NCBI GenBank assembly: GCA_963698075.1 | Contig: OY969116.1 | Coordinates: forward strand, 734,131 to 798,130 | Source of the DNA: an uncultured Candidatus Berkelbacteria bacterium | Lineage (GTDB): Bacteria > Patescibacteriota > UBA1384 > UBA12157 > JAENIV01 | Reading direction: 5' to 3' | Length of the DNA: 64,000 nucleotides | Shown here: positions 1,540 through 62,754 of the stretch, one piece after another | Layout: each line of letters begins with the position of its first letter | How positions within the stretch are numbered: position 1 is the first letter of the stretch | The notes under the pieces: model-generated | Told to the model about the DNA's origin: nothing | The model's database searches: none | What the model saw: the letters and a program-made list of their open reading frames with translations, nothing else | Program-made: the position numbers and the translations under genes

Positions 1540-2307
1540 ATGGACATCAAATCATCATTAGAGCAAATTGGACTTCGAAAAAGACAAATTGATATTTACC
1601 TTGCTCTTTTGCAAATGGGCGAGGCAACTGTGCAAGAGATCGCTAATAAAACCAAAGTTAAACGAACTACCGTTTATAGTATTTTAGATGTTTTAATCGC
1701 CAATGGTTTAGCCACTTTTATTGAAAAAGAAGGCCACCGAACTTACTTTGCCGAGAACCCAAAAAAAGTTATTTTATATTTTAAAAACCAAGAGCAGGAA
1801 TTAAAAACCAAATTAAATAAATTTAGTGAGATAATCCCCGAACTTTCTTCGATTTATAATATTCAAGCTACCAAACCAAAAATTCGTTTTTACGAAGGCG
1901 TTGAGGGCTTAAAACAAGTTTTTGAAGAAACTTTAACGATTAAGCCACACGAAGAAATTTTGGCGATTGCCACGGCGGCTTTGATCCACGAGGTCCTTGG
2001 CGATGAATGGGTCAACAATTATTTAACCCGCCGCGTCGGCGGGAAAATCAAACAGCGGGCGATTGTTGAAGATTCGGCCTGGGGTAGAGAACATCAAAAA
2101 AATGATAAAAAAGAAAATCGGGTCACTCGCTTAGTGCCCAAAGAAAAATTTCCGTTTTCCAATGAGGTCAATATTTTTGGCAATAAAGTCATGATCGCCT
2201 CATTCAAAGATCAAATCGGAGTAATAATCGAGAGTGCCGATGTGGCCAGGACCCAAAGGGCGATATTTGAACTGGCGTGGCTGGGAGCCGATAAGTACAG
2301 TAAATAG
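1540..2307 (+). CDS. TrmB-family transcriptional regulator (wHTH N-term + TrmB C-domain), paralog 1
   Basis: N-terminal LEQIGL..IYLALLQMGEATVQEIA..TTVYSILDVLIANGL wHTH; paralogous to ORFs at 23916, 25751, 29992. Confidence 0.8.
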   Translation: MDIKSSLEQIGLRKRQIDIYLALLQMGEATVQEIANKTKVKRTTVYSILDVLIANGLATFIEKEGHRTYFAENPKKVILYFKNQEQELKTKLNKFSEIIPELSSIYNIQATKPKIRFYEGVEGLKQVFEETLTIKPHEEILAIATAALIHEVLGDEWVNNYLTRRVGGKIKQRAIVEDSAWGREHQKNDKKENRVTRLVPKEKFPFSNEVNIFGNKVMIASFKDQIGVIIESADVARTQRAIFELAWLGADKYSK

Positions 2308-7361: not shown

Positions 7362-9550
7362 ATGCGAAACATTAGTTTAGAAAACTTCCGACGAGGTTTC
7401 ATTTTAGAATATATTCTTTGGATTTTATTTGGCTTATTATTTTTGATCTTAGCAAAGACTGCACCCCAGATTTTTGCCAATCCTTGGTTTTTCTCCATGG
7501 CTTTTTTATATTTATTGCTTTTGCCGGGCTGGTTGCTTTTTGGAATTTTGAAAATTAAAATCGAAGATTTTGCCGGTCTTTTCCTTTGCTACTTGACCTT
7601 GGGTTTAATTTTTTATCTTATCCTGGCTTTGTTGGCAGTTCTAGCTGCTTTGAGCCTGGCTGCTTTAATTAAAATTTCCTTTGGACTGCTGATTCTTTTA
7701 TTTGTTTTAGGCTTCCTCTTAGCCCTTTTTAGACCCGCCAAAACACCAACTCTCCCCAAAAAAATTACCGAGGCTGATCTCTTCTTGTTATTGCCAATTA
7801 TTTTTGGGGCATTCATACTCTATGTCGTTTATCTGAAGGGACCCGGTTTAGATGGTGATCCCTATTTACACCTTTCAATTATTCGTAAAGCTTTTTTGGG
7901 AGATTCATTGTCGCCTCGGGCGCTGGCTTTCGCCAAAACTGGGCTCATCATGCCAGCTTATAATTATCCGATTTGGCATGTTTTCTTAGCTTTTTTAAGC
8001 AAAATCTTATCCTTGGACCCACTCATTGTCTGGTCCAATGTTTTATTTGCTTTGACAGCGATCATGCTCTTTATCTGGTACTGGTTTTTTAAGAAAATTT
8101 TTGTCCAAAAGGGCTGGTCGATTTTGGCTCTTTTAATTTTTTTGGCAGTGACCTTTTATGTCGGCACTGGTTATTTATTCACTCGCTTAGCGGTTCCGGA
8201 TACGCTTGCTCAATTCATTCTTTTGCCTCTTTTAATTGCCTTAAGCCTGGACTATATTTTCGCCCAAAACCAAAATCGAAGCCTGCTAGTTATTATTAGC
8301 TTGTTGGCCATTATTTCCCTTATCATTCATGGCCCTCATTATTTTTACTTCTTATTTATCTTTCTAATTTTCGGCCTCCTTTACACCATCGTTGGTCTCA
8401 AAGATAATGCCTACAAAATCATTTTAAAAAAGATCGGTGAAGTCATTTTCATCTCTTTAATTCCCCTTGTACTTTTTGGGATTATAGTTGAAGCCCTAAG
8501 TGGCTCTTTGTCTATGATTCTAGCTGAATTTTCTAAAGCTTCCCCCCCAGAACTGAGGACGCAATTTTCAAGTTTTGGCTTGCTGACGAGATATGGATAT
8601 TTTCTTATTCCCTTCACCATTCTTTTTGTCCGACAAAAAAGAATTCTTTTTGTCATCAGCTCAATGGCCTTAGTGCCGTTAATCTATTGGACACCACTGG
8701 GAAATTTTTTGGGAAAAATTTTAAGTTTTGTTTTTGTCGAAAGATTGCGCGATAACACCGCCTTTTATTTCCTAGTTATCACCTTGATTTTGGGCCTTTT
8801 TGTTTTGGCCATCGACCGTCTCGCTAGTCTTTACTCGCGTTATCGCCATCTCTTGGAAATAATTTTAGTTGCCTTATTTTTCTTTCTTGTCGGATTGGAA
8901 GTTCGATCCCACAAAATTACCTCCTTTTCTTATAAGATTTTTTATGATAAATCAACCGCGGCCTATCTTGATAATCATTTAATTTGGCTTGTTTTTATCA
9001 GCTTTTTTTGGCTTTATTGGCTTGCCTGGTTCGGAAATTTTTGATTAAAAAAGAGATCATCATTAGTCAACAAATCTTTCAAAATCAATTAATCTGTTTT
9101 TTGGTAATCGTAATAATTGCTTTTTTCTTTTTTGCGCCATCATTGGAATATCTCCCGGTCGACTTACATCAACCAATGAAAGAAACTGCCCAGGATTATT
9201 TCCTAAGAAGGCTTAGTGGTGACCCGGGGGCTTTGTCTTTTGTCCAAAAAAACCTACCAGCAAAGTCGGTTATTTTAGCTGACGAAAATGCGACTAAAGT
9301 GCTCTCGGTGATGACCGGTAATTATATGGCTTACAACGTTGGTTCTGCTTATGAAGAGAGATTTAATTGGGTTTTTGACCCAACCACTCCAGATTCCGAG
9401 AAGGTAAATATCGTCACCTCTCCCGAATGGGCGATTGACTATATTTATTTGGCCGATCCGACCGCTGAGGGCCAGCATTTTCGCCTCCATCCAGAAATTT
9501 ATCAGAAAATATATGATGGACAGACAATAATTTATCAAGTGACTAAATGA
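7362..9550 (+). pseudogene. GT-C-like membrane protein paralog 2, interrupted by -1 frameshift at T7 homopolymer (9004-9010); possible phase-variable gene
   Basis: ORF 7362-9044 (560 aa) and ORF 8984-9550 (188 aa) overlap in different frames; together colinear with paralogs 1 and 3; T8 would give an in-frame fusion (...SFFLALLACLVRKFLIKKE...). Confidence 0.55.
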
Positions 9551-14302: not shown

Positions 14303-15013
14303 CTATTTAGTAAAAAATCTCCTGTAAATTAACTTGGAAATGATGCGCAAGGCATTGATATTTTTTTGTCCTTTTCCTAATGAGTAATCAGTATAAACAC
14401 TTTTAACCGGGACTTCAATTAATTTTAATTCGTGGCGGCCTATCTCGTAAAAAAATTCGCTCGAAACCTCCATTTTATTTGACTGAATATCAATTTTTGA
14501 TAGAGACTTTTTGGAAAAAGCCCGTAGTCCTGATTGCGAATCCGTTGACCAGACCCAGAAAAAGAGAACTGTAATTAAATTAAGTCCCCAAATACCAATC
14601 ATTCGATACCATGGCATTCCTTGGGGATTTTTAAGCCGTGAACCGATAACAACGTCAGATTGGCCATAGACAATTGGTCTTAACACCGGCCAAATATCAT
14701 CACTTTGATGTTGGCCGTCGGCATCAAAAGTTAAGACCACGTCAAACTGGTTTTCGCGGGCATATTCAAAACCGGTTCCCAAGGCACCACCCAAACCTCG
14801 GTTTAAATTATGTTCGATTAAAGTGATCCCGGCTTGTAAGTGACTTTGAACAATTTCGGCGGTTTTATCAGTTGAGCCATCGCTGATAACAACAATTTCT
14901 GTTTCACGGATTCCCGGGTAACGGCGGGGGATCGATTCTAAAACCGCCTTAATGGTTTTTTCCTCGTTGTAGGCTGGGATAATGATGGCTAACTTTATCT
15001 GTTTTTTTAACAT
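14303..15013 (-). CDS. GT2 polyprenol-phosphate glycosyltransferase (Dpm1/GtrB-like)
   Basis: LAIIIPAYNEE...VISDGSTDKT...DADGQH motifs (DxD, GT-A fold). Confidence 0.8.
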   Translation of the reverse strand: MLKKQIKLAIIIPAYNEEKTIKAVLESIPRRYPGIRETEIVVISDGSTDKTAEIVQSHLQAGITLIEHNLNRGLGGALGTGFEYARENQFDVVLTFDADGQHQSDDIWPVLRPIVYGQSDVVIGSRLKNPQGMPWYRMIGIWGLNLITVLFFWVWSTDSQSGLRAFSKKSLSKIDIQSNKMEVSSEFFYEIGRHELKLIEVPVKSVYTDYSLGKGQKNINALRIISKLIYRRFFTK

Positions 15014-15035: not shown

Positions 15036-15132
15036 TTCCAATGGTGATTGTGACTTTACCATACAACGGCTTTGGGAACTTTGGCAAGTCCCCTATCTTT
15101 TTACCTTAAAATTTGCTAAAATATCTGTAGAT

Positions 15133-15219
15133 GGAGAGATGGCAGAGTGGCCGATTGCGCCGCACTTGAAATGCGGTATCCTCGCAAGGGGATCGGGGGT
15201 TCGAATCCCTCTCTCTCCG
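15133..15219 (+). tRNA. tRNA-Ser (anticodon TGA), long variable arm
   Basis: Cloverleaf folded by hand: acceptor GGAGAGA/TCTCTCC, anticodon stem CCGCA/TGCGG, loop CTTGAAA, variable arm, T-loop GGTTCGAATCC; CCA not encoded. Confidence 0.85.
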
Positions 15220-15247
15220 AATTGGATTTAGTGTATGATAATTTTAT

Positions 15248-15339
15248 GGAGAGGTCGCATAGTTTGGCCTAGTGCGGCACGGTGCTAACGTGCTGAGTCC
15301 GCAAGGGCTCCGTGGGTTCGAATCCCACCCTCTCCGCCA
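15248..15339 (+). tRNA. tRNA-Ser (anticodon GCT), long variable arm, CCA encoded
   Basis: acceptor GGAGAGG/CCTCTCC, anticodon loop GTGCTAA, T-loop GGTTCGAATCC, 3' CCA present. Confidence 0.85.
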
Positions 15340-15500
15340 AGCCAAAATGTCCAATTCTTTTGGATGTTTTGGCTTGAGGGTTGGTGAGAACCCACAAATG
15401 ACAGTCATGTTATAACAATGAGACATTTACAGAAAGCACGAAAAAGACATTTAAGATAGATTTAACAAAACTTGATTGAGACGTCGGTTGGACACCGACC

Positions 15501-15523
15501 TTCGAATCCCACCCTCTCCGCCA
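15501..15523 (+). repeat. 23-nt direct repeat of tRNA-Ser(GCT) 3' end (TTCGAATCCCACCCTCTCCGCCA), att-like scar
   Basis: exact match to 15317-15339, 161 bp downstream of the intact tRNA. Confidence 0.6.
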
Positions 15524-15608
15524 CGTAATAAATTTGTGAACAAATTTAAACGTGGCTGAGACGTTTAAATCTATTGATTTATTACGTCTCGCCAAAATTA
15601 AAAAATAT

Positions 15609-16457
15609 ATGAAATTTTCTTTCAAATTAAAAAAACGTTTGGGGATTACCGAACTTCAGAAAAACACTCGCCAATTGATCGAAATTCTTTCGGAAAATTA
15701 CGTCAAGGAAAATCTCTTTCAAAATCCTAAATATCAAAACCCAAAAAAACTCAACCGCTTTGAATTTCAGGTTTTTTCCCAAAACGGTGAAGACGGCATT
15801 ATCGAAGAAATTTTTAAGCGTATTGGCACAACAAATAAGTTTTTTGTTGAGTTTGGCGCTGCCAATGGTCTTTGGAACAATACCACCCACCTTCTTATTA
15901 AAGATTGGAAGGGTTTATGGATTGAGGGTGATGAGGAATGTATTGCTGAGATTAAGACCAAGTTCGCTCGTCTTATTGATAAGAAAAAATTAATTATTCG
16001 AAAAGACTATGTGACTCCAGAGAATGTTGAAGATTTATTTAAAGAAGCCCGGGTTCTCCAGGATTTTGACCTTTGCTCCATTGATATTGACGGCAATGAC
16101 TACTGGGTTTGGCAGGCGATCCGAGAATTTAAGCCCCGCGTCATGACAATCGAATACAACTCTTTATTTCGTCCGGAGACCAAATGGGTGATGAAATACA
16201 ACCCCAAACATTTCTGGAATCAAACTTGCTATGCTGGCGCCAGCCTAAAGTCACTCGAAATATTAGGAGCCCAAAAAGGCTATAGGCTGGTTGCCTGCGA
16301 CTTCCTTGGTGTCAATGCCTTTTTCGTCAGGAAAGATTTAGTCAAAGATAAATTCCTCTCTCCATTCACTGCCGAGAATCATTACGAGCCGCCCCGCTAT
16401 TTTCTTTCGCGATCGCTTGGCCACCCCCGCGATTTCGGCGATTTTGAAAATATCTAA
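15609..16457 (+). CDS. hypothetical protein (possible polysaccharide-modifying enzyme)
   Basis: ORF with FSQNGEDGIIEEIF and DIDGNDYWV motifs; ATG 15609 chosen, GTG 15552 alternative overlaps tRNA fragment. Confidence 0.45.
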   Translation: MKFSFKLKKRLGITELQKNTRQLIEILSENYVKENLFQNPKYQNPKKLNRFEFQVFSQNGEDGIIEEIFKRIGTTNKFFVEFGAANGLWNNTTHLLIKDWKGLWIEGDEECIAEIKTKFARLIDKKKLIIRKDYVTPENVEDLFKEARVLQDFDLCSIDIDGNDYWVWQAIREFKPRVMTIEYNSLFRPETKWVMKYNPKHFWNQTCYAGASLKSLEILGAQKGYRLVACDFLGVNAFFVRKDLVKDKFLSPFTAENHYEPPRYFLSRSLGHPRDFGDFENI

Positions 16458-16472
16458 ATTTTGTGCTAACTT

Positions 16473-17360
16473 TTGAAGGCCATGACTTTTCCAAACGGTA
16501 AACAATTTGCCTTTAGCATTGTTGATGACACGGACGGGGACGAAATCGAAAACACCCGTCCAATTTATGAATTTTTGGTCAATTTGGGTCTGAAAACTAC
16601 CAAGACCGTTTGGGCACAAAAATCCCGTGATGGTTTTAAGGGTCTTTCTTTAGAGGATTATCGATATCGCCAATACATTAAAAAACTCGAACGATCAGGT
16701 TTTGAAATTGCTTTCCATGGCGTCGGCTCAGGTCGATTTACCCGACAAGATATTATCGATGGCCTTGAGGTTTTTCACCAATTCATGGGTTTTTATCCCA
16801 AAATTCAGATTAATCACGGTCAAAATCCTGACAACCTCTATTGGGGCGTCAAAAGATTTTCTTTTTTGCGGCCTTTTTGGCGCTGGAGCCATTTTCGCGG
16901 CGACGATCCCGAATCAATTTATTTCTGGGGCGATTACGCCCAAAAATATATCAAATTCATCCGCAATTTTACCTTTAAAAAACTTAACTTGCTCAAGTTT
17001 GACCCATTTATGCCTTATAAAGAAACCAGAAAAGTTTATGCCAATTATTGGTTTAGCGCCACCGAAGCCCCAGATGTGGTCAAATTTAACAAAATCGTAA
17101 ATCAGGAAAGCCTCGATCGTTTAATTAAAGAGAAAGGCATGGCCATTGTCTATACTCATTTTGCCTCGGGATTTTGCCGAGCCGGGCGCCTCGATCGCAC
17201 CTTTCAGCGGAATATGGTCTATCTTGCCCGTCGAAATGGCTGGTTTGTACCGGCAGGTGATTTGTTGGATTATCTTTTAAAACAGGGTAGAGGCAAAGAG
17301 ATTAGTTCTTGGCAAAAATTAAGTCTCGAAGCCGAATGGTTGCTTAATAGAATATTTTAA
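16473..17360 (+). CDS. hypothetical protein, divergent polysaccharide-deacetylase-like
   Basis: FSIVDDTDG and EIAFHGVGSG resemble NodB motifs 1/2 loosely. Confidence 0.4.
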   Translation: MKAMTFPNGKQFAFSIVDDTDGDEIENTRPIYEFLVNLGLKTTKTVWAQKSRDGFKGLSLEDYRYRQYIKKLERSGFEIAFHGVGSGRFTRQDIIDGLEVFHQFMGFYPKIQINHGQNPDNLYWGVKRFSFLRPFWRWSHFRGDDPESIYFWGDYAQKYIKFIRNFTFKKLNLLKFDPFMPYKETRKVYANYWFSATEAPDVVKFNKIVNQESLDRLIKEKGMAIVYTHFASGFCRAGRLDRTFQRNMVYLARRNGWFVPAGDLLDYLLKQGRGKEISSWQKLSLEAEWLLNRIF

Positions 17361-17410: not shown

Positions 17411-17483
17411 GTCCCCATAGCTCAGCGGATAGAGCGTCAGCTTGCGGAGCTGAAGGTCGGGTGTTCAAATCACCCTGGGGACG
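17411..17483 (+). tRNA. tRNA-Arg (anticodon GCG)
   Basis: acceptor GTCCCCA/TGGGGAC, anticodon stem TCAGC/GCTGA loop TTGCGGA, T-loop GGGTGTTCAAATCACCC. Confidence 0.75.
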
Positions 17484-17493
17484 CTATTTTATT

Positions 17494-23915: not shown

Positions 23916-24662
23916 ATGAATCTAGAGAAACTTTTAGAAGAATTTGGGTTAAATGAGAAAGAGGCAAAAACTTACCTTGCCTGTTTGGAATTGGGGCCAT
24001 CGAAAATTCATGACATTGCTGACTTATCGGGCGTTGGTCGAGTGAATACCTACTATATTATTGAGAAATTAATCCAGCATGGTTTGGTCAGCCGCACTTT
24101 CAAAAAAGAGAAAATGCTTTTTGTGGCGGAAGAGCCGGAAGTTTTAGCGGAAATTGCCCAACGCCGGGCCAAGCGTTTTAAAAATTTATTACCCAATCTT
24201 AAAGCCCTCTCAAAAGGAGAGAACAAACCCTCGGTCAGGTATTACGAAGGCGAAGAAGGAATCAAAGCGTTATATGAAGATTCTTTAACCAGTAAAGAAA
24301 AAATATATGCTTGGAATAGCGCCGAAAATCTTGAAGCAGTCATGCCGGAATATTTTCACGATTATTACAAGCGCCGGGCAGCCAAAAATATCTTTATTAC
24401 AGGTATTTTGAATGATTCTCCTGAAGCGCGGGCATACCAAAAGCAGGATAAAGAGTTAAAACGCGAAATTCGACTGGTGCCCGAGAATCGAATGAATATT
24501 AAGCCTGAGTGCTATATTTATGAAAATAAGGTCTCTTTTATGTCTTTACGGGAGAAAATTGGGGTGATGATTGAGTCTAAAGATATCGCCGATGCGATGA
24601 AACGGCTATATGAACTTGCTTGGGAAAGAGCTGGGGAATATCAAAAAAAGGTCTCGAAGTAA
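23916..24662 (+). CDS. TrmB-family transcriptional regulator, paralog 2
   Basis: LEEFGLNEKEAKTYLACLELGPSKIHDIADLSGVGRVNTYYIIEKLIQHGLV; promoter TTGACA-16-TATAAT with TTGTCAA/TTGACAA inverted repeat at 23831-23862. Confidence 0.8.
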   Translation: MNLEKLLEEFGLNEKEAKTYLACLELGPSKIHDIADLSGVGRVNTYYIIEKLIQHGLVSRTFKKEKMLFVAEEPEVLAEIAQRRAKRFKNLLPNLKALSKGENKPSVRYYEGEEGIKALYEDSLTSKEKIYAWNSAENLEAVMPEYFHDYYKRRAAKNIFITGILNDSPEARAYQKQDKELKREIRLVPENRMNIKPECYIYENKVSFMSLREKIGVMIESKDIADAMKRLYELAWERAGEYQKKVSK

Positions 24663-25750: not shown

Positions 25751-26509
25751 ATGAATAATGAAGAGTTAGTAAAATTGTTGGCAGAATTAGGAATTACCGG
25801 CAATGAGGCGAAGGTTTATCTCGCCTGCTTGGAGCTGGGGCCGACAACAATTACTAAAATCGCCCGTAAAGCGGAGGTTGAGCGGGCAACGGTTTATGCG
25901 ATTTTGGATCGTTTGAAAGAAAAAGGATTAGTAGGCATCGAAGTCAAAGATTATGACCGGCATGTTCAAGTTGAGACACCCGATAAATTATTGGTTCTTG
26001 CGCGGCACAAAAAGAGGGCCATCGAAGAAAAAGAACATCAATTTAAAGAAATTTTGCCAGATTTGTTGGCTACGGTTAACCAGCGCGGCAAACAGCCAAA
26101 AGTGCGGTTTTATGAGGGGAAAGAGCAATTTATGGCTGTTTTTGATCAAGCATTAGATGAAACCAAAGAAAAAATGTATTTTTTTGGCGCGGCTTCGCTT
26201 TTTGTTGACCTTATTTCTTATCAGTTTGAAAAAGAATGGATTAAAAGAAGGGTACGTAAGAAAATCCATATTGATATTTTGGTCCACAAAACCCCATTAA
26301 CCGAGAGATTTAAAATTGACGACGAGAAAGAAATGCGAACCACTCGATTTTTGCCATCGAATATGAAATTCGAGGCCTCATATCTTTTATGGGGTAATAA
26401 AATTGCCCTCTGGAACCCCGTCGTTCCTTTGGCAATAGTTATCGAGGACGAAATTATCGTCAAAATGTTTAAGGAGATGTTTTTCGGGTTGTGGGCAAAG
26501 GCAAAATAA
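25751..26509 (+). CDS. TrmB-family transcriptional regulator, paralog 3
   Basis: LAELGITGNEAKVYLACLELGPTTITKIARKAEVERATVYAILDRLKEKGLV; promoter TTGACC-18-TATAAT. Confidence 0.75.
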   Translation: MNNEELVKLLAELGITGNEAKVYLACLELGPTTITKIARKAEVERATVYAILDRLKEKGLVGIEVKDYDRHVQVETPDKLLVLARHKKRAIEEKEHQFKEILPDLLATVNQRGKQPKVRFYEGKEQFMAVFDQALDETKEKMYFFGAASLFVDLISYQFEKEWIKRRVRKKIHIDILVHKTPLTERFKIDDEKEMRTTRFLPSNMKFEASYLLWGNKIALWNPVVPLAIVIEDEIIVKMFKEMFFGLWAKAK

Positions 26510-29991: not shown

Positions 29992-30756
29992 ATGAATCTT
30001 GAAGAAGTTTTAGAAGAATATGGGCTTACCGAAAGACAAGCCAAGGTCTACTTGGCTGCTTTGGAATTGGGCGAATCCGACGTTTCGGATCTTGCCCAGA
30101 AAGCCCAAATCAGAAGAGCAGGCGCTTATTATTTAAGCGAATCATTGGTTAAAGACGGTTTGTTTTATAAAACTAAAAAAGCCAATAAACTCTATTATTC
30201 CGCCGTTGAACCAAAAAATCTATTAGAGCAAGCCAAACGCAAAAAACAAATTATTGAAGAAAATTTCTCAGAACTTCAAGCTTTAGCAAGGTTGTCAATC
30301 AAAAAACCCAACATCCATATTTATGAAGGAATTGAGGGCATAAAAACTGCCTATAAAAGAACTTTAACTAAGAAAAATGCCAAAATGTATGCCTTTTCGC
30401 CTTATGCGACCGCCCAAAAAACCGCCCAATTTCACGGTCGGGAATATCTCAAATGGGGTTTAGAATATATTAAACAAAGAGCCAAAAAAAACATTTTTGT
30501 TTATGACATTGCCGAAGACTCCTCAGAGGCGCGGGAAAGAAAAAAACGTGATCAAGAAGAGTTGCGAGAAACCCGTTTAGTGCCTAAGGAAAAGTTTCCT
30601 TTTACGAACGAAATTGATATTTTCCAAAATTTGGTCATTATAATCTCGTATAAAGAGTTATTGGCAATAATAATCGAATCTCAAGATATCGCTTTTACTT
30701 TAAAGACCATTTTCAACCTCGCCTGGGAGGCGGCAGCTAATTATAGTAAAAAGTAA
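29992..30756 (+). CDS. TrmB-family transcriptional regulator, paralog 4
   Basis: LEEYGLTERQAKVYLAALELGESDVSDLAQKAQIRRAGAYYLSESLVKDGL; C-terminus near-identical in pattern to paralog 1. Confidence 0.8.
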   Translation: MNLEEVLEEYGLTERQAKVYLAALELGESDVSDLAQKAQIRRAGAYYLSESLVKDGLFYKTKKANKLYYSAVEPKNLLEQAKRKKQIIEENFSELQALARLSIKKPNIHIYEGIEGIKTAYKRTLTKKNAKMYAFSPYATAQKTAQFHGREYLKWGLEYIKQRAKKNIFVYDIAEDSSEARERKKRDQEELRETRLVPKEKFPFTNEIDIFQNLVIIISYKELLAIIIESQDIAFTLKTIFNLAWEAAANYSKK

Positions 30757-61803: not shown

Positions 61804-62754
61804 TCACGCGGGAGGCGTTTCTTGATGTCTTCTTCTCCCATGAAACGCCTGGTGGACTTCGGCGAGATGCTGGTCAGTGACGTGAGTATAGATTTGGGTT
61901 GTCGTCACCGAAGCGTGGCCTAAAAGTTCCTGAACCGAGCGCAAGTCCGCTCCGGACATTAAAAGATCAGTGGCAAACGAATGACGCATGGTGTGGGGGC
62001 TAACATGTTTGGTAATTCCCGCCATTCGGGCATATTTATGAATCATCCGCTGAACCGACCGGGGAGTCATAGGGGAAGGTTTTAGGTTTAAGGGGTTAGG
62101 TTTTAAAGAGTGTCCGTAAGATATAAATAAATACGGGTTTTTATCATTCCTAATATTTAAATAATTTTTTATCGATTCTCGTGCTTCTTGATCCAAAAAG
62201 ACAACTCTGACTTTACCACCCTTACCGACCACCGAAAATTCGCTCTTTTCCAAATTAATATCATCCTTTTTAAGATTACAAAGCTCAGAAACCCGAAGTC
62301 CAGTTGAAAAAAATAGATCCAAAATTGCCTTATCGCGCCGACCCTGGATGGTTCTTAAATCTGGTTGTTTGAGGATGGCGTCAAGTTCTTCATCATCCAA
62401 AAAACTTATTTGACGTTCGCCAGTTTTGGCCAGTTCGATGCCTTCGGCAGACAGTGTTTGAATCCCGCGAGTGCCCAAATATTTCAAAAAAGCCCTCAAG
62501 GCAATCAAATGATAATTGGCGGTTGATTTGGCAATAATATCTTTTTTGGTTGAATCAGGCAATCTATGCAAAAACAGCCGATATTTATGAATTAGATCCT
62601 GATCAATTTTTTGAGGGGTTTCCACTCCCGAATCTTTAGCAAAACCGGCAAAACGCCTTAGATAATGATCATAATTTCTGACCGTCAGAACCGAGTGGCC
62701 TTTGTCCACCTCCAGATACTCCAAGAAATCAGTGATGAGACTATTAATAGTCAT
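61804..62754 (-). CDS. XerC/XerD-family tyrosine site-specific recombinase
   Basis: C-terminal RHSFATDLLMSGADLRSVQELLGHASVTTTQIYTHV (R..H..R...Y catalytic residues). Confidence 0.88.
   Translation of the reverse strand: MTINSLITDFLEYLEVDKGHSVLTVRNYDHYLRRFAGFAKDSGVETPQKIDQDLIHKYRLFLHRLPDSTKKDIIAKSTANYHLIALRAFLKYLGTRGIQTLSAEGIELAKTGERQISFLDDEELDAILKQPDLRTIQGRRDKAILDLFFSTGLRVSELCNLKKDDINLEKSEFSVVGKGGKVRVVFLDQEARESIKNYLNIRNDKNPYLFISYGHSLKPNPLNLKPSPMTPRSVQRMIHKYARMAGITKHVSPHTMRHSFATDLLMSGADLRSVQELLGHASVTTTQIYTHVTDQHLAEVHQAFHGRRRHQETPPA

What the first reader, a model, noticed from the sequence alone, without database searches (positions are those of the whole stretch)
15248..15523. tRNA-Ser(GCT) 3' end duplicated as a 23-nt direct repeat 161 bp downstream: integration scar at a tRNA hotspot
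TTCGAATCCCACCCTCTCCGCCA occurs at 15317-15339, the intact tRNA 3' end including CCA, and again at 15501-15523. This is the signature that tRNA-targeting integrases leave: attL and attR carry the same tRNA 3' core. The intervening 161 bp has no gene, so this looks like a remnant after deletion of the element. Alternatively it marks one boundary of the flanking low-GC glycosylation locus.
Basis: seen in the sequence. Interest (0 to 1): 0.55.

Follow-up and report, generated by a model that had tools for sequence, protein, structure and literature searches.

The report
Orphan tRNA-Ser end: old integration scar
A 23-base copy of the end of a serine tRNA gene sits 161 bases downstream of the intact gene in a tiny-genome (Berkelbacteria-like) bacterium. 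It is most likely the leftover footprint of a mobile element that once inserted there, which is an ordinary kind of scar at a site that is unusually busy in this lineage.

Summary
TTCGAATCCCACCCTCTCCGCCA occurs exactly twice in the window: at 15317-15339, the 3' end of an intact tRNA-Ser(GCT), and at 15501-15523, an orphan copy. None is expected by chance.

The repeat runs exactly from the first T-loop base to the encoded CCA. Its flanks show no similarity to the tRNA (10/69 identities upstream), so a decayed tandem tRNA is excluded.

The organism is a Berkelbacteria-like CPR bacterium. In seven relatives the conserved flanks (GT2 gene, tRNA-Ser pair, FkbM-like gene) enclose different DNA just after tRNA-Ser(GCT). 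The inserts are an HNH endonuclease gene, MazG, a 6.2-kb block (GIY-YIG, Fic, Bro-N), a truncated serine-recombinase relic and a protease gene. None carries this orphan copy.

In six of six viral contigs tested, the same 23-mer as an orphan lies next to a tyrosine integrase.

Best reading (about 0.62): a displaced tRNA 3' end (attR-type relic) from site-specific integration, with nearly all of the element since lost. No integrase, parent element or empty site was found, so the mechanism is inferred.

The alternative "boundary of the glycosylation locus" is not supported. This is a known kind of feature, of low to moderate interest.

The parts
14303..15013 (-). GT2 glycosyltransferase gene, the conserved left flank of the tRNA pair
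   Evidence: Pfam Glycos_transf_2. Homologues at 73-88% identity in Berkelbacteria-like contigs keep the same position next to tRNA-Ser(TGA).
15132..15220 (+). tRNA-Ser(TGA), no encoded CCA
   Evidence: ARAGORN and Rfam at 57.7 bits.
15248..15339 (+). Intact tRNA-Ser(GCT) with encoded CCA; the regenerated target gene (attL side)
   Evidence: ARAGORN and Rfam at 46.7 bits.
15317..15339 (+). Core copy 1: from T-loop base T54 to CCA of the tRNA
   Evidence: Exact 23-mer.
15338..15376 (+). 17-bp hairpin that starts inside the CCA of copy 1. It includes G-U pairs that only work on the + strand RNA. Likely a tRNA 3' trailer or terminator-type hairpin, though it has no U tract.
   Evidence: the repeat finder I6; RNAfold -24.8 kcal/mol. 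The simple terminator scan found none because the T run is missing.
15340..15500 (.). 161-bp spacer, the presumed residue of the inserted element. It has no credible ORF and 38.5% GC.
   Evidence: No similarity to the rest of the window, to relatives' inserts, to 120 viral loci, or to the phage and plasmid collections. No Rfam hit.
15483..15499 (+). Small 6-bp hairpin ending one base before copy 2; it replaces the T-stem 5' strand
   Evidence: RNAfold -8.0 kcal/mol.
15501..15523 (+). Core copy 2: orphan tRNA 3' fragment (attR-type displaced end)
   Evidence: Exact 23-mer. The upstream 69 nt share only 10/69 identities with the tRNA body, no better than shuffles.
15520..15556 (+). Hairpin that starts inside the CCA of copy 2. 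It is plausibly the original trailer hairpin of the tRNA before the insertion.
   Evidence: RNAfold -16.9 kcal/mol; part of the fold of 15340-15610 with z = -6.9.
15554..15593 (+). Second hairpin, whose stem is the inverted pair GAGACGT/ACGTCTC
   Evidence: RNAfold -20.8 kcal/mol.
15478..15590 (.). Cluster of three GAGACGT motifs (15478-15484 +, 15558-15564 +, 15584-15590 -) bracketing copy 2. They could be recombinase arm-type or operator sites; this is unproven.
   Evidence: Only 4 copies occur in 64 kb, and 3 of them lie within these 113 bp. The motif is absent from the same region in relatives.
15584..15594 (+). Possible third, much older tRNA-3'-end relic (ACGTCTCGCCA). It aligns with the block AAGGTTCTAGACC..GTCCCGCCA that L127 and L130 carry about 15 nt before the FkbM-like start codon.
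   Evidence: Alignment A2 and sequences. Weak, since only the last ~11 nt are recognisable in the window.
15609..16457 (+). FkbM-like methyltransferase-family gene (282 aa), the conserved right flank
   Evidence: Homologues at 72-89% identity in relatives follow the variable segment. Some sources name it FkbM family. No Pfam hit.

Best explanation
Copy 2 (15501-15523) is the displaced original 3' end of tRNA-Ser(GCT), that is, an attR-type relic.

Inferred sequence of events:
1. A mobile element carried an attP containing the last 23 nt of this tRNA, from the T-loop to CCA.
2. It recombined site-specifically with the gene, most likely through a tyrosine integrase crossing over in the T-loop.
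3. The element-borne copy regenerated the gene (copy 1, followed by the element's own trailer hairpin at 15338-15376).
4. The old end, with its own trailer hairpin (15520-15556), was pushed downstream.
5. Nearly all of the element, including its integrase, was then deleted, leaving 161 bp.

Shown: the exact repeat; its canonical extent; its sharp edges; the absence of genes between the copies; the hypervariability of this site among relatives; and the use of this same 23-mer next to integrases elsewhere.

Inferred: that an integrase made this particular copy; which side is element and which is chromosome; and the deletion step.
For: - The exact 23/23 repeat occurs only twice in 64 kb, with 0 expected.
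- The identity block runs from T54 to A76 (CCA). This is the T-loop sublocation described for tRNA-targeting integrases (bioRxiv 10.1101/2020.11.02.365908). The principle of a regenerated gene plus a displaced fragment is set out in PMC4383910 and PMC9897764.
- The edges are sharp: 10/69 identities upstream and 13/40 downstream, with a global alignment score inside the shuffle distribution. At that retention rate, P(23/23) is about 5e-20.
- Both copies are followed by a hairpin that starts in the CCA. This is expected if each once ended a transcribed tRNA gene.
- The site is a hotspot. Between tRNA-Ser(GCT) and the next conserved gene, relatives carry:
  - an HNH endonuclease gene (L130);
  - MazG (L124);
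  - 6.2 kb with GIY-YIG, TrmB, SWIM, Fic and Bro-N (L127);
  - a Bro-N-like gene (L131; named by eye from the translated sequence and its position next to FkbM as in L127, no domain search run);
  - a truncated large-serine-recombinase relic (L133);
  - a protease gene (L218).
- None of these relatives has copy 2.
- The recombinase-relic element of L133 recurs, with the same tRNA-proximal junction, next to a different tRNA-Ser in L219.
- Of 120 viral-contig occurrences of the 23-mer, 45 lie outside a called tRNA. About 15 of those have no tRNA-like sequence upstream. Six of six such contigs examined encode a tyrosine integrase whose nearest end is about 160-750 bp from the fragment.
Against: - No integrase or other mobile-element gene lies between or beside the copies. 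The only tyrosine recombinase in the window (61804-62754) is XerC/D-like, lies 46 kb away and has no core copy near it.
- No parent element, attP junction or empty site was found in viral or metagenome scans. The organism is absent from the genome collection.
- Copy 2's left flank lacks the T-stem symmetry that many attP sites keep.
- GAGACGT motifs lie on both sides of copy 2. This is not the simple P-arm/B' pattern expected of an attR.
- The mobile genes seen at this site in relatives are homing-type endonucleases and a serine recombinase relic, not tyrosine integrases.
- Only 64 kb of a roughly 0.93-Mb genome could be searched.
Confidence: 0.62

Rival explanations
1. Miniature non-autonomous att-flanked element (CIME-like). 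The 161 bp plus the two intact 23-nt cores is not just debris. It is a still-recombinable unit that a trans-acting integrase could excise or that could capture an incoming element by accretion. The GAGACGT repeats would be protein-binding sites.
For: - Both cores are perfectly intact.
- A CIME is defined as having lost its integration and transfer genes while keeping attL and attR (PMC6323972).
- A locally over-represented GAGACGT motif brackets copy 2.
- Logan contigs of the same sample break on either side of the tRNA-plus-spacer segment, which could reflect population heterogeneity.
Against: - No second copy of the 161-bp sequence exists in the window or in any fetched locus.
- No cognate integrase was seen in 64 kb.
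- 161 bp is far smaller than described CIMEs.
- The contig breaks have many trivial explanations.
Confidence: 0.1
2. By-product of homing-endonuclease or recombination-driven cassette turnover. Free-standing HNH or GIY-YIG genes that sit beside this tRNA in relatives move by double-strand-break repair, using the tRNA as flanking homology. An imprecise repair or cassette exchange duplicated the tRNA 3' end, and the endonuclease gene was later lost.
For: - An HNH gene sits exactly at this position in the closest relative with data (L130).
- GIY-YIG genes lie on both sides of tRNA-Ser(GCT) in L127 and between the two tRNAs in L133.
- L127 carries an orphan 16-nt 5' fragment of the same tRNA fused to the end of a GIY-YIG ORF. 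tRNA fragments are therefore generated here without a visible integrase.
- The tRNA-Ser(GCT) sequence type does not track relatedness.
Against: - There is no trace of an endonuclease ORF in the 161 bp, by tblastx against relatives' inserts.
- The repeat's extent matches a canonical integrase sublocation exactly.
- These small GIY-YIG and HNH proteins are not shown to be active homing enzymes.
Confidence: 0.13
3. Functional cis-element. The orphan T-loop/acceptor/CCA segment, with its flanking hairpins and GAGACGT repeats, acts as a processing, termination or operator module for the tRNA operon or the downstream FkbM-like gene.
For: - The region is strongly structured: z = -6.9 for 15340-15610, with three stable hairpins.
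- A motif cluster lies just upstream of the gene start.
- L127 and L130 conserve a tRNA-3'-like block at the same place before the gene.
Against: - Copy 2 and the motif cluster are absent in all relatives examined.
- There is no Rfam family match.
- No 5' acceptor partner exists to form a tRNA-like minihelix.
- No promoter-like or terminator-like consensus was found here.
Confidence: 0.05
4. Decayed tandem tRNA gene: a third tRNA-Ser once stood at about 15432-15523, and only its last 23 nt survive.
For: tRNA-Ser genes are in tandem here, and the two intact genes share 84% identity over 37 nt (D4).
Against: - The 69 nt upstream of copy 2 are indistinguishable from random relative to the tRNA body (10/69; 363 of 1000 shuffles score at least as well), while the 23 nt are perfect. 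P is about 5e-20 under uniform decay.
- Relatives have no such third gene.
Confidence: 0.02
5. Boundary marker of a horizontally acquired glycosylation island (the low-GC block to the left or the FkbM/flippase/GT4 block to the right), or an assembly artefact at a short repeat.
For: - GC is lower at 4-16 kb (0.36-0.39) than elsewhere in the window.
- The FkbM-like protein has about 60% identity to cyanobacterial proteins.
- The window comes from a metagenome-derived genome.
Against: - The left block (large membrane proteins, GT4, DUF2304, GT2) and the right block (FkbM-like gene, 292-aa gene, tRNA-Arg, flippase, GT4) are syntenic in several relatives.
- No further core copy exists in the window to close an island.
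- An independent assembly reproduces the copy-2 junction.
Confidence: 0.04

Closest known systems
Genomic islands and prophages integrated in tRNA genes by tyrosine integrases (Islander-type: regenerated tRNA gene plus displaced 3' fragment; T-loop sublocation)
   Same: An intact tRNA gene and an orphan, directly repeated 3' fragment. The identity block runs from the T-loop to CCA. The same 23-mer is found as an integrase-adjacent orphan in viral contigs. The principle is described in PMC4383910, PMC9897764 and bioRxiv 10.1101/2020.11.02.365908.
   Different: Only 161 bp lie between the repeats, with no integrase and no cargo. The host is a CPR/Berkelbacteria-like bacterium with a genome of about 0.9 Mb. 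No parent element is known.
CIMEs (cis-mobilizable elements: attL and attR retained, integration and transfer genes lost; PMC6323972)
   Same: Two intact att-type cores flank DNA that encodes no recombination or transfer function.
   Different: It is orders of magnitude smaller than described CIMEs. No cognate ICE or integrase is known, and no evidence of mobilisation or accretion exists.
Free-standing homing endonuclease genes (GIY-YIG, HNH) inserted beside conserved genes such as tRNA genes
   Same: In relatives, the very same intergenic positions beside tRNA-Ser(GCT) hold HNH and GIY-YIG genes. One of them is associated with an orphan tRNA 5' fragment.
   Different: The window itself has no endonuclease ORF. 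Homing normally leaves no long direct repeat of the target.

Membership tests
tRNA-gene att scar of a site-specific integrative element | Intact target tRNA gene plus an orphan fragment of its 3' end in direct orientation | tested here: met
tRNA-gene att scar of a site-specific integrative element | Identity block starts at a canonical sublocation (anticodon loop, T-loop or 3' end), runs to the 3' end, and has abrupt loss of similarity outside | tested here: met
   The block is T54 to CCA. Flanks show 10/69 and 13/40 identities. Sublocations as described in bioRxiv 10.1101/2020.11.02.365908.
tRNA-gene att scar of a site-specific integrative element | Integrase gene inside the repeat-bounded segment, usually next to the tRNA | tested here: not met
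   The 161 bp hold no credible ORF. The only recombinase in the window is XerC/D-like and lies 46 kb away. This fits a degraded relic, not an intact island.
tRNA-gene att scar of a site-specific integrative element | Empty site in relatives: tRNA joined directly to the sequence that follows the orphan copy | tested here: inconclusive
   Relatives lack copy 2, but each has different DNA after the tRNA. The junction scan in metagenomes hit only unrelated high-GC genomes.
tRNA-gene att scar of a site-specific integrative element | The same core sequence is used by integrase-bearing elements | tested here: met
   6/6 viral contigs with the 23-mer as an orphan fragment encode a tyrosine integrase whose nearest end is about 160-750 bp from the fragment. 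These are in unrelated hosts, so the support is generic rather than lineage-specific.
tRNA-gene att scar of a site-specific integrative element | Site is polymorphic or a hotspot among related genomes | tested here: met
   Six different contents at this site in relatives, one including a recombinase relic.
CIME (cis-mobilizable element) | attL and attR intact; no integration or transfer genes between them | tested here: met
CIME (cis-mobilizable element) | Excision or mobilisation by a related element's integrase; derivation from an ICE or IME | not testable with these tools
   No reads, no whole genome and no cognate element are available.
Decayed tandem tRNA gene | Residual similarity to the tRNA body upstream of the surviving fragment | tested here: not met
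   10/69 identities, with a score inside the shuffle distribution.
Free-standing homing endonuclease cassette | Endonuclease ORF, or a recognisable pseudogene, in the inserted segment | tested here: not met
   tblastx and blastn of 15221-15608 against relatives' inserts matched only the tRNA parts. Such ORFs are present in relatives at the same site.

The most novel reading that the evidence does not exclude
The locus records serial integrations at one tRNA in a CPR bacterium. Reading from the tRNA rightwards, there is a live gene (core 1), a young intact orphan core (15501-15523) bracketed by GAGACGT protein-binding repeats, and an old decayed core just before the FkbM-like gene (15584-15594). 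The last is shared in better condition by L127 and L130. Under this reading the 184-bp unit is a miniature att-flanked element that is still recombinable in trans. It would be a minimal CIME in a phylum where integrative elements are barely described.
Probability: 0.1. Interest if true: 0.45.

Novelty: new member of a known kind. Interest (0 to 1): 0.25.

Why it matters
In itself this is a routine footprint. Orphan tRNA 3' fragments are a well-known product of site-specific integration and a known nuisance for tRNA annotation.

Its modest value is contextual. It marks tRNA-Ser(GCT) as a recombination hotspot in Berkelbacteria-like CPR bacteria. Their reduced genomes are thought to carry few integrated elements, and here the inserted DNA appears to be eroded down to bare scars. 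Examples are a truncated serine-recombinase relic, orphan 5' and 3' tRNA fragments, and lone homing-type endonuclease genes.

It could serve as an anchor for finding CPR mobile elements and for dating gain and loss at one site.

Tried and rejected
- Exact scan of the genome collection with the 56-nt 3' half of the tRNA gave 0 hits, so the organism and its near relatives are not among the species representatives.
- A protein-profile scan of the genome collection with the GT2 alignment gave only three useful relatives (L133-L135); the rest were distant.
- Viral-contig scans for the three junctions (spacer/core 2, core 1/spacer, core 2/downstream) gave 0 hits each.
- The metagenome scan for core 2 plus its downstream flank, meant to find empty sites, gave 4 hits. 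All were chance matches in high-GC organisms.
- blastn and tblastx of the spacer and flanks were run against the window, all fetched loci, relatives' inserts, and the phage and plasmid collections. Only the tRNA core matched.
- Rfam with permissive thresholds found only the three tRNAs and antisense-tRNA artefacts.
- An apparent inverted partial copy of the core at 15370-15386 (TGGC..GAGGGTTGG) and its pairing with 15493-15503 in the MFE fold were judged to be at chance level by my own estimate (about 0.26 expected).
- The exact-protein lookup for the window's own genes returned only short Logan contigs, so the rest of the 929-kb genome could not be searched.
- Searching for full-length relatives of the L133 recombinase found mostly truncated proteins with Recombinase and/or Zn-ribbon domains. 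None had a resolvase-domain hit on record.

Full report
**1. Observation**

The 23-mer TTCGAATCCCACCCTCTCCGCCA is present at 15317-15339 and 15501-15523 on the + strand. These are the only two matches in 64 kb even when 3 mismatches are allowed, and none occurred in 100 dinucleotide-preserving shuffles.

ARAGORN calls tRNA-Ser(TGA) at 15132-15220, tRNA-Ser(GCT) at 15248-15339 and tRNA-Arg(GCG) at 17411-17484. Rfam confirms all three. Copy 1 is therefore the true 3' end of an intact tRNA-Ser(GCT), running from the first T-loop base (T54) through the encoded CCA. Copy 2 is an orphan 161 bp downstream.

An independent Logan assembly of sample ERR10755944 (L122) contains the junction of 17 nt of spacer, copy 2 and the downstream sequence.

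**2. Anatomy**

- The repeat has razor-sharp edges. The 69 nt before copy 2 share 10/69 positions with the tRNA body, and a global alignment scores inside the shuffle distribution (363 of 1000 shuffles do as well). The 40 nt after the two copies share 13/40.
- Uniform decay of a tandem tRNA cannot give 23/23 next to noise (P about 5e-20 at the upstream retention rate).
- The spacer is 38.5% GC against 63% for the tRNA.
- The spacer has no credible ORF and no Rfam match.
- The spacer has no similarity to anything else in the window, in relatives, in 120 viral loci, or in the phage and plasmid collections.
- Each copy is followed by a stable hairpin that begins inside its CCA: 15338-15376 (-24.8 kcal/mol) after copy 1 and 15520-15556 (-16.9 kcal/mol) after copy 2.
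- A third hairpin (15554-15593, -20.8 kcal/mol) follows, and a 6-bp hairpin (15483-15499) ends one base before copy 2.
- The heptamer GAGACGT occurs four times in the window, three of them within 113 bp around copy 2: 15478 (+), 15558 (+) and 15584 (-).

**3. Organism and flanks**

Homologues of the flanking GT2 glycosyltransferase (14303-15013, - strand) are named Candidatus Berkelbacteria or Patescibacteria. The window's own protein sits on a 929-kb NCBI contig.

- Left of the tRNAs lies a block of large membrane proteins, GT4, DUF2304 and GT2.
- Right of them lie an FkbM-like gene (15609-16457), a 295-aa gene, tRNA-Arg, a flippase and several GT4 genes.
- Both blocks are syntenic in relatives.
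- The only recombinase in the window (61804-62754) has the XerC/D domain pair, lies 46 kb away, and has no core copy nearby.

**4. Comparative evidence**

Relatives were fetched through the flanking proteins. Percentages are protein identity to the window: FkbM-like protein for L130 and L131, GT2 for the others. Each shows a different content just 3' of tRNA-Ser(GCT):

| Relative | Identity | Content after tRNA-Ser(GCT) |
|---|---|---|
| L130 | 84% (FkbM-like) | 195-aa HNH endonuclease gene |
| L131 | 88% (FkbM-like) | Bro-N-like gene (assigned by eye, no domain search) abutting the FkbM-like gene |
| L218 | 80% | trypsin-like gene directly |
| L124 | 78% | MazG gene |
| L133 | 75% (named Berkelbacteria) | about 165 bp, then the C-terminal part of a convergent large serine recombinase (Zn_ribbon_recom above threshold), cut by the contig end |
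| L127 | 74% | 6.2 kb with GIY-YIG, a TED/cyclase-like gene, TrmB, SWIM, Fic and Bro-N |

- None has a second copy of its tRNA 3' end at up to 5 mismatches.
- The interval between the two tRNA-Ser genes also varies. It is 27 bp in the window, a GIY-YIG gene in L127 and L133, and a methyltransferase gene in L124 and L134.
- The L133 recombinase relic belongs to a family of mostly truncated proteins with Recombinase and/or Zn-ribbon domains; no resolvase-domain hit is on record for any of them.
- In L219, a homologous relic and a homologous 130-nt junction abut the 3' end of a different tRNA, tRNA-Ser(GGA). This shows an element family joined to tRNA-Ser 3' ends in this group.
- L127 and L130 share a block, AAGGTTCTAGACC[C/A]GA[A/G]TGTCCCGCCA, about 15 nt before the FkbM-like start codon. 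It has exactly the G53-to-CCA length of a tRNA 3' end. The window keeps only ...ACGTCTCGCCA (15584-15594) at the aligned position. This may be an older relic, which would make the locus a stack of successive scars. The evidence for this is weak.

**5. Generic positive control**

The 23-mer is common in viral contigs, and the scan saturated at 120 loci.

- 75 occurrences are in called tRNAs and 45 are not. About 15 of the latter have non-tRNA sequence right up to the T-stem or T-loop.
- Six such contigs were examined, and all six encode a Phage_integrase-family protein whose nearest end is about 160-750 bp from the fragment. Several also have an arm-DNA-binding domain.
- This exact sequence is therefore used as an att core by tyrosine-integrase elements elsewhere.
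- The literature describes the mechanism (PMC4383910; PMC9897764) and the T-loop-to-CCA sublocation (bioRxiv 10.1101/2020.11.02.365908).

**6. Interpretation**

The most likely history is site-specific integration of an element whose attP carried the last 23 nt of tRNA-Ser(GCT). The steps would be:

1. Regeneration of the gene (copy 1 with the element's trailer hairpin).
2. Displacement of the original end with its own trailer hairpin (copy 2).
3. Deletion of almost the whole element, leaving 161 bp.

Confidence is about 0.62. The steps involving an integrase and the deletion are inferred. No integrase, parent element, attP or empty site could be found, and only 64 kb of the genome was available.

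The rivals are:

- a still-recombinable miniature att-flanked (CIME-like) unit (0.10; definition in PMC6323972);
- a by-product of homing-endonuclease-driven cassette turnover (0.13), which gains weight from the HNH and GIY-YIG genes at this very site and from the orphan 5' tRNA fragment fused to a GIY-YIG ORF in L127;
- a functional cis-element (0.05);
- a decayed tandem tRNA (0.02, effectively refuted);
- an island boundary or assembly artefact (0.04).

**7. Verdict**

The main interpretation is the best available but is only indirectly supported, and the alternative interpretation is rejected. This is a new instance of a well-known kind of feature in an under-studied phylum. The interest is low to moderate (0.25) and lies mainly in the hotspot revealed by the comparison, not in the 23-mer itself.

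Noticed in passing
L127:8855-9215 (- strand); L133:780-1045 (- strand): Small GIY-YIG ORFs (Pfam PF01541) sit between tRNA-Ser(TGA) and tRNA-Ser(GCT) and read into the 5' end of tRNA-Ser(GCT). In L127, an orphan 16-nt 5' fragment (ATGGAGAGGTCGCATA, 8855-8870) supplies the end and stop codon of the ORF, and the complete tRNA lies 65 nt further on. Orphan 5' tRNA fragments therefore also arise at this locus.
   Followed up: partly
L133:1-800 and L219:7800-9900: A truncated large-serine-recombinase-like gene (L133 copy cut by the contig end; Zn-ribbon +/- Recombinase domain, no resolvase-domain hit on record) and a homologous ~130-nt junction abut the 3' end of tRNA-Ser(GCT) in L133 and of tRNA-Ser(GGA) in L219. 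Many family members are only 150-290 aa, which suggests eroded relics or a stand-alone domain family in CPR bacteria.
   Followed up: partly
L133:559-586 (+ strand): An extra orphan tRNA-3'-like fragment, CAAGGTTCGAATCCCTTCCTCTACCACC, shares 16 nt with the tRNA-Ser(GGA) end of L219. It lies between the recombinase relic and tRNA-Ser(GCT), in the opposite orientation to that tRNA.
   Followed up: no
window 15248-15339; L124:4202-4294; L127:8700-8789; L130:1-77; L133:694-786; L134:1-95; L218:943-1034: tRNA-Ser(GCT) comes in at least three quite different sequence types among close relatives, and the type does not follow GT2 protein identity. The closest relatives have a different type from the window, while the more distant L127 shares the window's type. 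This suggests replacement of the tRNA gene by recombination with incoming DNA.
   Followed up: partly
window 15478-15590: Three of the four GAGACGT heptamers in the whole 64 kb lie within 113 bp around the orphan copy: two direct and one inverted, with one pair forming a hairpin stem. The motif is absent from the same region in relatives. Its function is unknown.
   Followed up: partly
L127:2448-2476 (- strand), L130:821-849, window 15584-15594: A conserved block, AAGGTTCTAGACC..GTCCCGCCA, has the exact G53-to-CCA length of a tRNA 3' end and lies about 15 nt upstream of the FkbM-like start codon in two relatives. The window keeps only the last ~11 nt, with differences from L127 that run mainly from G/C to A/T. 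It may be an older relic.
   Followed up: partly
window ~15254 and ~15484 (L121, L122): Logan contigs from sample ERR10755944 end at the start of tRNA-Ser(GCT) and restart 17 nt before the orphan copy. The tRNA-plus-spacer segment is therefore on a separate unitig. This could reflect strain heterogeneity at exactly this segment, or only coverage.
   Followed up: no
window 1540-2307, 23916-24662, 25751-26509, 29992-30756: Four paralogous TrmB-family HTH regulator genes lie in one 64-kb window, interspersed with glycosylation genes.
   Followed up: no
window 15609-16457 and 16473-17360: Two adjacent genes without Pfam hits. The first is FkbM-methyltransferase-like and has about 60% identity to Microcystis and other distant bacterial proteins, which suggests horizontal exchange of glycan-modification genes. 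The pair is always found between tRNA-Ser(GCT) and tRNA-Arg(GCG) in relatives.
   Followed up: partly
window 61804-62754 (-): A 316-aa tyrosine recombinase with the Phage_int_SAM_1 and Phage_integrase domains (XerC/D-like). It is not associated with any copy of the tRNA core.
   Followed up: partly
L218:1143-1165: In one relative, the other serine tRNA (TGA anticodon) ends in a sequence 22/23 identical to the window's core. The core is therefore shared between tRNA-Ser isoacceptors in this group, and an element using it could switch between them.
   Followed up: no
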